Below, in pieces: positions 52,231 to 53,769 of a stretch of 64,000 nt of DNA. The DNA is from a virus (lineage: Duplodnaviria; Heunggongvirae; Uroviricota; Caudoviricetes): IMG/VR virus record IMGVR_UViG_2823670853_000002; one strand, 5' to 3'. The position numbers were made by a program, and so were the translations under genes. The notes under the pieces were generated by a model. It made no database searches and was not told where the DNA came from. It worked only from the letters and a program-made list of their open reading frames with translations. Within the stretch, counting starts at the first letter, position 1, and the number at the start of each line of letters is the position of its first letter.

Positions 52231-52326
52231 ATCTGCTTAATAAATACACAATTGGGTCTAATAACCTCTTTTTTTTAAAGGCGAAAATATGTACCCTAAA
52301 TGGGTTATAAGGCAGGTGAGGTTATA

Positions 52327-52458
52327 ATGAGAAAACTATTACTATCGTTATTATTTATGGCTGGGACTGTTAATGCAGCATCAAGCGTAAAGGAGATTTG
52401 TACCGATTATACGAAATACCTTTGGCAAGTTTACGCCTTTGCGATCAATGACTATTAA
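52327..52458 (+). CDS. Small signal-peptide protein (43 aa), unlisted short ORF
   Basis: MRKLLLSLLFMAGTVNAASS... with GAGG RBS; AT-rich codon usage. Confidence 0.35.
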   Translation: MRKLLLSLLFMAGTVNAASSVKEICTDYTKYLWQVYAFAINDY

Positions 52459-52461
52459 TCC

Positions 52462-52797
52462 ATGCGTAGGAGTGGATTTATGCTGATTCGTTTGTTTTTA
52501 GTGCTTTCCTTTTTAACATTTAATGTTTTTGCTGATGAAGTTGACTTTTCGAAGGTAGATTGTAATTCAGTGGAAACAAGAAAAGCTCTTATTGAAGAAT
52601 ATAACGAAATATTATCGTCATATGGAATAACAGTGGTTGATTCTTATAATCAAAAAACTATTCAGAAAGGAATAAATAAACTGGTCTGTTATGGGGTTTA
52701 CCAATATTCAGATGGCTCTTCGGAGTATGTTATTTATAAAGCATACCCAAATAGTCTTGGTGAATTAATTAGTGAGTTTAAACCGATTAATGAGTGA
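52462..52797 (+). CDS. Secreted protein of unknown function
   Basis: 111 aa; signal-peptide-like MLIRLFLVLSFLTFNVFA; AT-rich. Confidence 0.45.
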   Translation: MRRSGFMLIRLFLVLSFLTFNVFADEVDFSKVDCNSVETRKALIEEYNEILSSYGITVVDSYNQKTIQKGINKLVCYGVYQYSDGSSEYVIYKAYPNSLGELISEFKPINE

Positions 52798-53584
52798 ATG
52801 GAAAATGAAATTATTTAATGTAATAACATTTTGTTGTGCTATTTTTGCTGGAAGCGCGATAGCTGATAATAAATTGCCAGATTGGCTTTCTACCTCAAAG
52901 AAAGATTATGATTTAGTAAGGGCATTCTATTTGTCTGGATTTGCTTCGAAAGCAATGAACAATCAATTTGGTTATCATTTGCCATCTGAGTTGGTTAATG
53001 ATTTTAAAGATAATGAATTTGCTGCTCAGGAAAAATGGAACACAATTCCAATTGTGTATGGTGAAATAAAATCCATAAGAATGGTGAATAATAAACCAAT
53101 TGTAGAGTTATTTACTCCAGGGGAAAATGCAACGCCACTAAATTATATCAAATTGAAAATATTGGATTCAAAGCAAGACTCTCTGTTAAAACTAAAAAAA
53201 GGGGATGATATATATGCAGTGTGCTCAGGTGCTAATTTTAGCTTAGTGCCAATTCTGAGCAACTGCACTCCAGCAACAGACGTCATTGATGCTGCACTCT
53301 CTTTTTCTGGTGAATATATGTTCCCTGCTTTTGATTCTTTTTCACCTACTAAGCAAAACGTCAAATATATATTCACAAATCAAGATCCTGTTCAGATGAT
53401 GAATTTTATAGGGTACCTATCCTTAGTCGATACAACGAAGGATAAGAAAAAAATGGATATGGTTCGTAAGTGTACGCCTTGGAAGCCGGAATGTTCACAA
53501 CAATTCGTTGATGTAATGGAAGGATTTGATAGCATCATGTATAAATATGAGAGAGAATTTAAAAATTACATAGAATTAAAATAG
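52772..53584 (+). CDS. Secreted protein of unknown function
   Basis: 270 aa (probable start MKLFNVITFCCAIFAGSAIA at 52805); several cysteines; AT-rich; followed by a strong terminator. Confidence 0.5.
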   Translation: MSLNRLMSEWKMKLFNVITFCCAIFAGSAIADNKLPDWLSTSKKDYDLVRAFYLSGFASKAMNNQFGYHLPSELVNDFKDNEFAAQEKWNTIPIVYGEIKSIRMVNNKPIVELFTPGENATPLNYIKLKILDSKQDSLLKLKKGDDIYAVCSGANFSLVPILSNCTPATDVIDAALSFSGEYMFPAFDSFSPTKQNVKYIFTNQDPVQMMNFIGYLSLVDTTKDKKKMDMVRKCTPWKPECSQQFVDVMEGFDSIMYKYEREFKNYIELK

Positions 53585-53615
53585 TATTTGAAAGGATGGT
53601 CAATTTAAGTTTTAA

Positions 53616-53648
53616 AAAAACGCCCATTAAAGGGCGTTTTATTGTTTT
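53616..53648 (+). terminator. Rho-independent terminator after the secreted-protein cassette
   Basis: CGCCC-ATTAAA-GGGCG hairpin followed by TTTTATTGTTTT. Confidence 0.6.
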
Positions 53649-53769
53649 ACTCAAAACAACCTGATTATGTGATAACCATATCATATCCCTCATTCCACCT
53701 ACACTGATTACCCCCCAGACAACAATATTCCTACTCAATGAACAAATGACTACTCGTAGAATCGGTTAA

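What the first reader, a model, noticed from the sequence alone, without database searches (positions are those of the whole stretch)
52300..53650. AT-rich cassette of three signal-peptide proteins divergent from the immI operon
Three consecutive plus-strand ORFs (43, ~105 and ~259 aa) all begin with signal-peptide-like segments, are visibly more AT-rich than the flanking backbone, and end at a strong terminator. They diverge from the c4-icd-ant operon across a C1-operator-like site, so the repressor could control them. This looks like a horizontally acquired moron encoding exported proteins, perhaps superinfection exclusion, a periplasmic toxin/immunity set or a host-interaction factor. The P1 sim superimmunity genes are described near immI, but I could not match these proteins or their orientation to sim.
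Basis: partly seen in the sequence, partly recalled or inferred. Interest (0 to 1): 0.7.

Follow-up and report, generated by a model that had tools for sequence, protein, structure and literature searches.

The report
Phage P1 simABC superinfection-exclusion operon
The AT-rich three-gene cassette is the already described simA-simB-simC "superimmunity" operon of bacteriophage P1, sitting in its normal place and orientation in a P1-like phage-plasmid, so it is an ordinary, known feature.

Summary
Three + strand ORFs with signal-peptide-like N-termini (43, 105 and 259 aa) form the lowest-GC island of the window (0.33 against 0.48). They end at a hairpin terminator and diverge from c4-icd-ant across a C1 operator.

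The cassette is not new. Window 52100-53750 is 98.6% identical to phage P1 (19 substitutions, no gaps over the cassette). It lies exactly under the annotated genes simA, simB and simC, with protein identities of 92%, 100% and 99%. P1 has the same divergent orientation, the same operator (Op51/Oc4) and the same downstream late promoter LPsit and pmgC.

The low G+C, the recent acquisition and the variability of sim among P1-like plasmids are already published. By published work, Sim blocks superinfecting P1 after adsorption and before DNA reaches the cytoplasm.

- P1-type simA is a 5' relic of a longer exported protein (179-215 aa in relatives). That longer protein carries a motif shared with the injection protein Sit.
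- SimC has a divergent PF12869-type OB-fold core.
- SimB models as a cystatin-like fold.
- The window joins a P7-type c4 to the P1-type sim cassette at Op51.

Verdict: already known, low interest.

The parts
52214..52230 (-). C1 repressor operator Op51/Oc4, lying between the divergent c4 and sim transcription units
   Evidence: One mismatch to the 17-bp C1 consensus. Identical to the P1 site annotated 'monovalent C1-controlled operator Oc4; controls expression of c4'.
52236..52262 (+). Predicted sigma-70 promoter PsimA, transferred from the P1 annotation: CTTAAT-15 nt-TCTAAT, a weak match
   Evidence: Coordinates mapped from NC_005856. It is only 'predicted' in P1. The window has T>C at the first -35 base. 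The local consensus scan did not pick it up.
52300..52458 (+). simA (52 aa as annotated in P1; 43 aa from the ATG at 52327 behind GGTGAGG): a signal peptide plus 26 residues. It is a 5' relic of a longer gene.
   Evidence: 92% identical to P1 SimA. It matches only positions 1-41 of the 213-position profile phrog_3933. Full-length relatives of 179, 189 and 215 aa exist in L004, JK004 and Ro157c2YLVW. DNA homology runs through the simA stop codon and ends at about 52467.
52462..52797 (+). simB (111 aa annotated; 105 aa from the ATG at 52480 behind TAGGAGTGG): a small exported protein, annotated as an accessory to superimmunity
52790..53584 (+). simC (264 aa annotated; 259 aa from the ATG at 52805): the Sim superinfection-exclusion protein. 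It has a signal peptide, an OB-fold core and a C-terminal helical region.
53617..53640 (+). Intrinsic terminator hairpin, 33 nt after the simC stop. An A-run lies upstream and a T-run downstream, so it may work in both directions.
   Evidence: -14.5 kcal/mol, z = -4.5. P1 differs at two positions here, 53616 and 53618.
51947..52153 (-). Context: C4 antisense RNA (51947-52032) and its a1/b1 target sites (52101-52153), the start of the divergent immI operon
   Evidence: Rfam RF01695 at 69.6 bits and RF03163 at 55.5 bits. The sequence is P7-type, not P1-type.
53744..53762 (+). Context: late promoter LPsit, the right-hand boundary of the cassette; pmgC starts at 53794
   Evidence: Identical to the P1 features mapped; annotation.

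Best explanation
The cassette is the simA-simB-simC operon of a P1-like phage-plasmid. It sits in the accessory slot between the C1 operator Op51 of the immI operon and the late promoter LPsit.

Shown here: sequence identity, synteny and orientation with P1 sim; signal-peptide-like N-termini; low G+C; and a terminator.

From the literature: Sim is made as a precursor and processed. When expressed, it protects the cell against superinfecting P1 at a step after adsorption and before the DNA reaches the cytoplasm. The processing, the bypass by transfection and the multicopy requirement are my own recollection of Devlin et al. 1982, Kliem & Dreiseikelmann 1989 and Maillou & Dreiseikelmann 1990. 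The exclusion role is cited in PMC8546580 and PMC9952470.

Inferred: SimC is exported by Sec to the periplasm. There its OB-fold domain binds some component of the incoming injection machinery, or the DNA itself, and stops transfer across the inner membrane. SimB is a small periplasmic accessory. P1-type SimA is a truncated remnant and probably dispensable.

The cassette is a low-GC, horizontally acquired and exchangeable module. It is not needed for lytic growth.
For: - Window 52100-53750 is 98.6% identical over 100% of its length to P1 NC_005856 46620-48269, under simA/simB/simC. There are 19 substitutions and 0 gaps across P1 locus positions 3600-5150.
- Protein identities are 92%, 100% and 99%.
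- Op51, PsimA, LPsit, pmgC, tub, pmgB and sit have the same order and orientation as in P1. The 20-kb surroundings are 97.9% identical to P1.
- The sim genes are scored non-essential in the P1 CRISPRi screen (PMC10695390).
- Sim is described as preventing DNA injection by superinfecting phage (PMC8546580; PMC9952470 Fig. 3 legend).
- sim is described as a low-G+C, recently acquired, variable region of P1-like plasmids (PMC9603915; PMC6906374).
- Export signals are supported.
- OB-fold core of SimC.
Against: - Nothing contradicts the identification.
The binding partner of SimC is unknown.
- The SimC model is only moderately confident (mean pLDDT 59.5), and its Pfam hit is below the curated cut-off.
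- No experiment here shows that this allele is expressed or active. It differs from P1 by 2 residues in SimC and 4 in SimA.
- As I recall the older work, exclusion was seen with multicopy sim, so the strength of the phenotype from a single-copy prophage is uncertain.
- PADLOC and NCBIfam have no model for these proteins.
Confidence: 0.95

Rival explanations
1. A previously undescribed moron, unrelated to sim, that encodes exported proteins.
For: RefSeq plasmid records call these genes 'hypothetical protein'. Pfam, NCBIfam and PADLOC give no significant family for them. Without a comparison to P1 the cassette therefore looks unannotated.
Against: It is near-identical to the annotated P1 simA/B/C in sequence, order and orientation. 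GenBank M34382, 'sim region ORF 1/ORF 2', matches at 97.7%.
Confidence: 0.01
2. A periplasmic toxin/immunity or bacteriocin-type set: one protein is toxic and another neutralises it.
Confidence: 0.02
3. Outer-membrane lipoprotein receptor blockers of the Cor/Llp type, which mask the phage receptor so that adsorption fails.
For: They are prophage-encoded exported proteins next to immunity genes. P7 carries an annotated outer-membrane lipoprotein (upf50.5) in the same slot. The best structural match of SimC is a lipoprotein, 3f1z.
Against: None of the three has a lipobox: there is no [LVI][ASTVI][GAS]C. SimC has ITFCC, with F at position -1, and a normal AIA|D signal-peptidase I site. As I recall Kliem & Dreiseikelmann 1989 (cited), adsorption is normal in sim+ cells.
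Confidence: 0.02
4. The three genes form an obligate three-component machine, with SimA as a functional small peptide, instead of SimC doing the work with a relic and an accessory.
For: P1-type simA keeps an intact signal peptide, an RBS and an open frame in P1 and in this window. P1 annotators call SimA and SimB 'putative superimmunity accessory function'.
Against: SimA equals only the first roughly 43 codons of a 179-215 aa protein found in relatives, and homology continues through its stop codon. The 1990 record M34382 annotates only two ORFs. SimA carries 4 of the 6 amino-acid differences from P1 although it is the shortest protein, which fits relaxed constraint.
Confidence: 0.15

Closest known systems
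Bacteriophage P1 simABC (P1_gp043, gp042, gp041; NC_005856 46786-48070; GenBank M34382 'sim region')
   Same: 98.6% DNA identity. Proteins are 92%, 100% and 99% identical. The flanks are the same (Op51/c4 on the left, LPsit/pmgC on the right), as are the divergent orientation, the low G+C and the terminator.
   Different: There are 19 base substitutions. SimC differs at N>K and G>R, and SimA has four changes. The adjacent c4 is P7-type, not P1-type.
Alternative cargo in the same slot of other P1-like phages: P7 upf50.5/upf50.0; Ro157c2YLVW and Cronobacter phage JK004 (long SimA plus a 158-aa protein); the E. coli plasmid contig L004 (long SimA plus SimB-like and SimC-like genes)
   Same: The position is the same, between Op51 and LPsit. 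The orientation is the same, and all products have signal peptides. L004 SimB is 59% identical and L004 SimC 47% identical to the window's proteins.
   Different: The gene content differs. P7 has a lipoprotein plus a membrane protein with no similarity found to the Sim proteins. The long SimA forms are full length there and truncated here.
Other phage superinfection-exclusion proteins that block DNA entry (T4 Imm and Sp, P22 SieA, HK97 gp15)
   Same: They belong to the same functional class as published for Sim: envelope-located prophage or phage proteins that stop DNA translocation after adsorption (PMC9952470 Fig. 3 legend; the rest is own knowledge).
   Different: No sequence or fold relationship was detected. 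Those proteins are mostly inner-membrane proteins, whereas SimC looks like a soluble periplasmic protein with a cleavable signal peptide.
PF12869 (tRNA_anti-like) OB-fold domain; structure 3f1z, putative nucleic-acid-binding lipoprotein of Klebsiella pneumoniae
   Different: SimC itself is below the Pfam cut-off (19.1 against 23.5 bits) and only 17% identical to 3f1z. It is not a lipoprotein. It has an extra helical region of about 100 residues at the C-terminus, modelled with low confidence.

Membership tests
P1 sim (superimmunity) operon | Proteins homologous to P1 SimA, SimB and SimC | tested here: met
   92%, 100% and 99% identity over full length; DNA 98.6% identical.
P1 sim (superimmunity) operon | Location between the immI operator Op51/c4 and pmgC/LPsit, transcribed divergently from c4-icd-ant | tested here: met
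   The P1 annotation and the coordinate mapping agree feature by feature. C4 RNA is confirmed by Rfam.
P1 sim (superimmunity) operon | Sim is made as a precursor and processed, that is, exported with a cleaved signal peptide | tested here: inconclusive
   The sequence has n-, h- and c-regions with an AIA|D site (heuristic only). Actual processing cannot be tested in silico; it was reported for P1 Sim by Maillou & Dreiseikelmann 1990 (own knowledge).
P1 sim (superimmunity) operon | Confers exclusion of superinfecting P1 after adsorption and before DNA entry | not testable with these tools
   Known only from the literature (refs 56 and 57 in PMC8546580). With 99% SimC identity, conservation of the function is likely.
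PF12869 tRNA_anti-like OB-fold domain (for SimC) | Score at or above the Pfam gathering threshold | tested here: not met
   19.1 bits against a 23.5 cut-off, E = 0.001. Of the 9 aligned sequences, 4 match at E up to 0.01, best 2e-14.
PF12869 tRNA_anti-like OB-fold domain (for SimC) | Five-stranded OB barrel that superposes on the family's solved structure | tested here: met
   [not shown]
Lipoprotein exclusion factors (Cor/Llp type) | Lipobox with an invariant Cys at +1 | tested here: not met
   None of the three N-termini has a lipobox.
Known anti-phage defence systems (PADLOC-DB) | Match to a defence-system protein model | tested here: not met
   No hits for any of the three proteins at E up to 0.1.

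The most novel reading that the evidence does not exclude
The sim slot originally encoded a three-protein periplasmic exclusion set. Its first member, 'long SimA' (179-215 aa), carries a copy of a short Sit motif (GMRxxxVxGTLExRARGxG; Sit residues about 946-973) and acts as a decoy for whatever envelope partner the injection/tape-measure protein Sit needs. In P1 and in this window that gene has been cut down to a 43-codon relic, leaving SimC to do the job. SimC is a periplasmic OB-fold protein that might bind the incoming DNA or Sit. If true, this would give the first molecular handle on how P1 DNA crosses the envelope and how Sim blocks it.
Probability: 0.15. Interest if true: 0.45.

Novelty: already known. 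Interest (0 to 1): 0.1.

Why it matters
As a finding it matters little. It re-identifies a locus described in 1982-1990 and annotated in the 2004 P1 genome, and its low G+C and variability among P1-like plasmids are also published.

It is useful as a calibration point. Most RefSeq plasmid records label these genes 'hypothetical protein', so a sequence-only reader can easily mistake them for something new.

The side observations could help someone who wants to work out the still unknown molecular mechanism of Sim exclusion. They are the simA relic, the Sit-like motif in full-length SimA, and the OB fold in SimC. All three are computational leads only.

Tried and rejected
- Pfam, NCBIfam and PADLOC scans gave no significant family apart from the sub-threshold PF12869 hit for SimC. 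PHROGs only returned 'unknown function' families.
- Searches for distant homologues show a very narrow family. SimC has 4 clusters in the 5.8-billion-protein set and 15 hits among 1.84 billion representatives, many of them fragments. SimB has 12 clusters. No informative annotated relative was found.
- A profile search of the SimC alignment against PDB sequences found nothing meaningful. The afdb50 fold library was unavailable.
- SimC against Sit, and SimB against the 158-aa second protein of Ro157c2YLVW, showed no similarity.
- JK004 long SimA against JK004's own Sit showed no shared motif. The Sit-like motif is therefore not universal among long SimA proteins, which weakens the decoy idea.
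- The Lobocka et al. 2004 P1 genome paper and the original sim papers are not held in the library. Details of processing and of the multicopy requirement therefore rest on my own knowledge and on citing papers.
- The promoter scan did not recover P1's predicted PsimA, so the transcription start of the operon remains unverified.

Full report
**1. The observation**

The region holds three consecutive + strand ORFs:
- 52300-52458: 52 aa, or 43 aa from the ATG at 52327, which follows GGTGAGG.
- 52462-52797: 111 aa, or 105 aa from the ATG at 52480, which follows TAGGAGTGG.
- 52772/52790/52805-53584: 270, 264 or 259 aa depending on the start codon.

Each begins with a basic N-terminus, a hydrophobic core and a small-x-small site: VNA|A, VFA|D and AIA|D. 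This is my own heuristic, not SignalP. None has a lipobox.

The stretch 52231-53640 has a GC of 0.329. The whole window is 0.477, and same-length windows have mean 0.476 and sd 0.031. It is the only stretch of that length in the 64 kb with GC below 0.40.

A hairpin with a T-rich tail sits at 53617-53640, 33 nt after the last stop codon. It folds at -14.5 kcal/mol, z = -4.5 against shuffles.

A 17-bp C1-operator match with one mismatch lies at 52214-52230. There are 10 such sites in the window against 0.3 expected by chance.

Left of it, on the - strand, Rfam finds the C4 antisense RNA at 51947-52032 and its a1b1 targets at 52101-52153. The ORFs further left match icd, ant1/2 and kilA.

**2. 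What it is**

Megablast of 52100-53750 against phage records gives 100% coverage at 98.6% identity to phage P1 (NC_005856 46620-48269). The match lies under the annotated genes simA, simB and simC. The 1990 GenBank entry M34382, 'sim region ORF 1/ORF 2', matches at 97.7%.

The P1 annotation shows exactly the arrangement seen here. c4-icd-ant1/2-kilA-repL run on one strand. Then comes the operator Oc4 (former Op51). simA (52 aa), simB (111 aa) and simC (264 aa) follow on the other strand, and after them the late promoter LPsit and pmgC, tub, pmgB and sit.

A base-by-base mapping gives 19 substitutions and no gaps across the cassette. Op51, LPsit and all three start regions are conserved. The proteins are 92% (SimA), 100% (SimB) and 99% (SimC, 262/264) identical to P1. 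The surrounding 20 kb is 97.9% identical to P1, so the window is a P1-like phage-plasmid.

In PLSDB, 550 plasmid records share part of the query and 136 carry at least 80% of it. The best reach 99.8%, and most label the genes 'hypothetical protein'.

**3. How it works**

Shown here:
- The identity of the cassette with P1 sim.
- Export signals on all three proteins.
- Its status as a discrete low-GC module with its own terminator.

Published:
- The sim genes are non-essential for P1 growth (CRISPRi screen, PMC10695390).
- Sim is cited as the P1 superimmunity/superinfection-exclusion protein that prevents superinfecting phage from delivering DNA into the cytoplasm (PMC8546580, citing Devlin 1982 and Kliem & Dreiseikelmann 1989; PMC9952470 Fig. 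3 legend).
- sim is listed among the low-G+C, recently acquired and highly variable regions of P1-like plasmids (PMC9603915; PMC6906374).

From my own knowledge of the primary papers, which are not held in the library:
- Adsorption is normal in sim+ cells.
- Transfection bypasses the block.
- The Sim protein is processed from a precursor.
- The phenotype was defined with multicopy clones.

Inferred: SimC is a Sec-exported periplasmic protein that interferes with transfer of DNA through the envelope.

**4. New structural hints**

SimC relatives are very few: 4 clusters in the 5.8-billion-protein set and 15 hits among 1.84 billion representatives.

This agrees with a sub-threshold Pfam PF12869 hit for SimC itself (19.1 against 23.5 bits). 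Four of the nine aligned sequences, SimC among them, match that family, with a best E-value of 2e-14.

**5. simA is a relic**

The SimA sequence matches only the first 41 positions of the 213-position profile phrog_3933.

Full-length versions exist in three relatives:
- 215 aa in phage vB_EcoM-Ro157c2YLVW.
- 189 aa in Cronobacter phage JK004.
- 179 aa in a 92-kb E. coli plasmid contig, L004. There it is followed by a SimB homologue (59% identical) and a SimC homologue (47% identical) in the same slot.

DNA alignment shows that homology between P1-type simA and the long genes runs through the simA stop codon. TAA stands where the long genes have GAA. Homology ends at about window 52467, just before the simB ribosome-binding site.

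P1-type simA is therefore the 5' stump of a larger gene. I found no mention of this in the papers I could read.

Two of the long SimA proteins share a 28-47 residue stretch with Sit of this window, GMRxxxVxGTLExRARGxG at Sit residues about 937-979. The pairwise BLASTP E-values are 9e-9 and 6e-8. JK004's long SimA lacks the motif and shares nothing with its own Sit. A decoy function is a speculation, not a result.

**6. The slot is exchangeable, and the window is a mosaic**

In P7 the same slot holds upf50.5, an outer-membrane lipoprotein, and upf50.0, a membrane protein. In Ro157c2YLVW and JK004 it holds long SimA plus an unrelated 158-aa exported protein.

The window's c4 RNA and leader are identical to P7 and differ from P1 at every P1/P7-diagnostic position. 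Immediately right of Op51 the window follows P1 and not P7. This element therefore combines P7-type immI specificity with the P1-type sim cassette, with the junction at or beside Op51.

**7. Control by C1**

Op51 is annotated as controlling c4. A promoter PsimA is only predicted in P1 (TTTAAT-15-TCTAAT). Its -35 starts 5 bp beyond the operator, and the window has a T>C change in it. The consensus scan did not find it. Whether C1 represses sim cannot be decided here.

**8. Verdict**

The feature is real, but it is the known P1 simABC operon in its normal context. Novelty: already known. Interest: low (0.1). The side observations are modest leads for anyone studying the unresolved mechanism of Sim exclusion.

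Noticed in passing
window 52300-52470; L004:3411-3950; L002:3228-3875; L006:3001-3570: P1-type simA is the first roughly 43 codons of a 179-215 aa exported protein that is intact in some P1-like elements. DNA homology runs through the simA stop codon (TAA where the long genes have GAA) and ends just before the simB ribosome-binding site. simA therefore looks like a deletion relic and not a designed small gene.
   Followed up: yes
L002:3228-3875 and L004:3411-3950 against Sit, window 55960-59382 (Sit residues about 937-979, window about 58768-58896): Two full-length SimA proteins carry GMRxxxVxGTLExRARGxG, a motif shared with the C-terminal part of the injection/tape-measure protein Sit (pairwise E = 9e-9 and 6e-8). 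JK004's long SimA lacks it. This may be a periplasmic mimic of a Sit segment, but that is untested.
   Followed up: partly
window 51940-52235: The C4 antisense RNA and its leader are identical to phage P7 and differ from P1 at all diagnostic positions. The sequence just right of operator Op51 is P1-type sim, which P7 lacks. The window is thus a P7-immI/P1-sim mosaic with the recombination junction at or next to Op51.
   Followed up: partly
[not shown]
   Followed up: partly
[not shown]
   Followed up: partly
window 52300/52327, 52462/52480, 52772/52790/52805: The start codons annotated in P1 (giving 52, 111 and 264 aa) lie upstream of ATGs with better Shine-Dalgarno sequences. Those ATGs place the signal peptide at the very N-terminus (43, 105 and 259 aa).
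   Followed up: partly
slot between Op51 (52214-52230) and LPsit (53744-53762); L003:3913-4977; L002:3228-4403: This slot is a cargo hotspot in P1-like elements and always holds signal-peptide proteins: simABC, the P7 pair upf50.5/upf50.0, or long SimA plus a 158-aa protein. Only 136 of the 550 PLSDB plasmids that match the query carry at least 80% of it.
   Followed up: partly
L004:2108-3238: In the divergent P1-like plasmid contig, an IS605-family OrfB/TnpB gene sits between icd and the sim-like operon, in the place where c4 and Op51 lie in P1.
   Followed up: no
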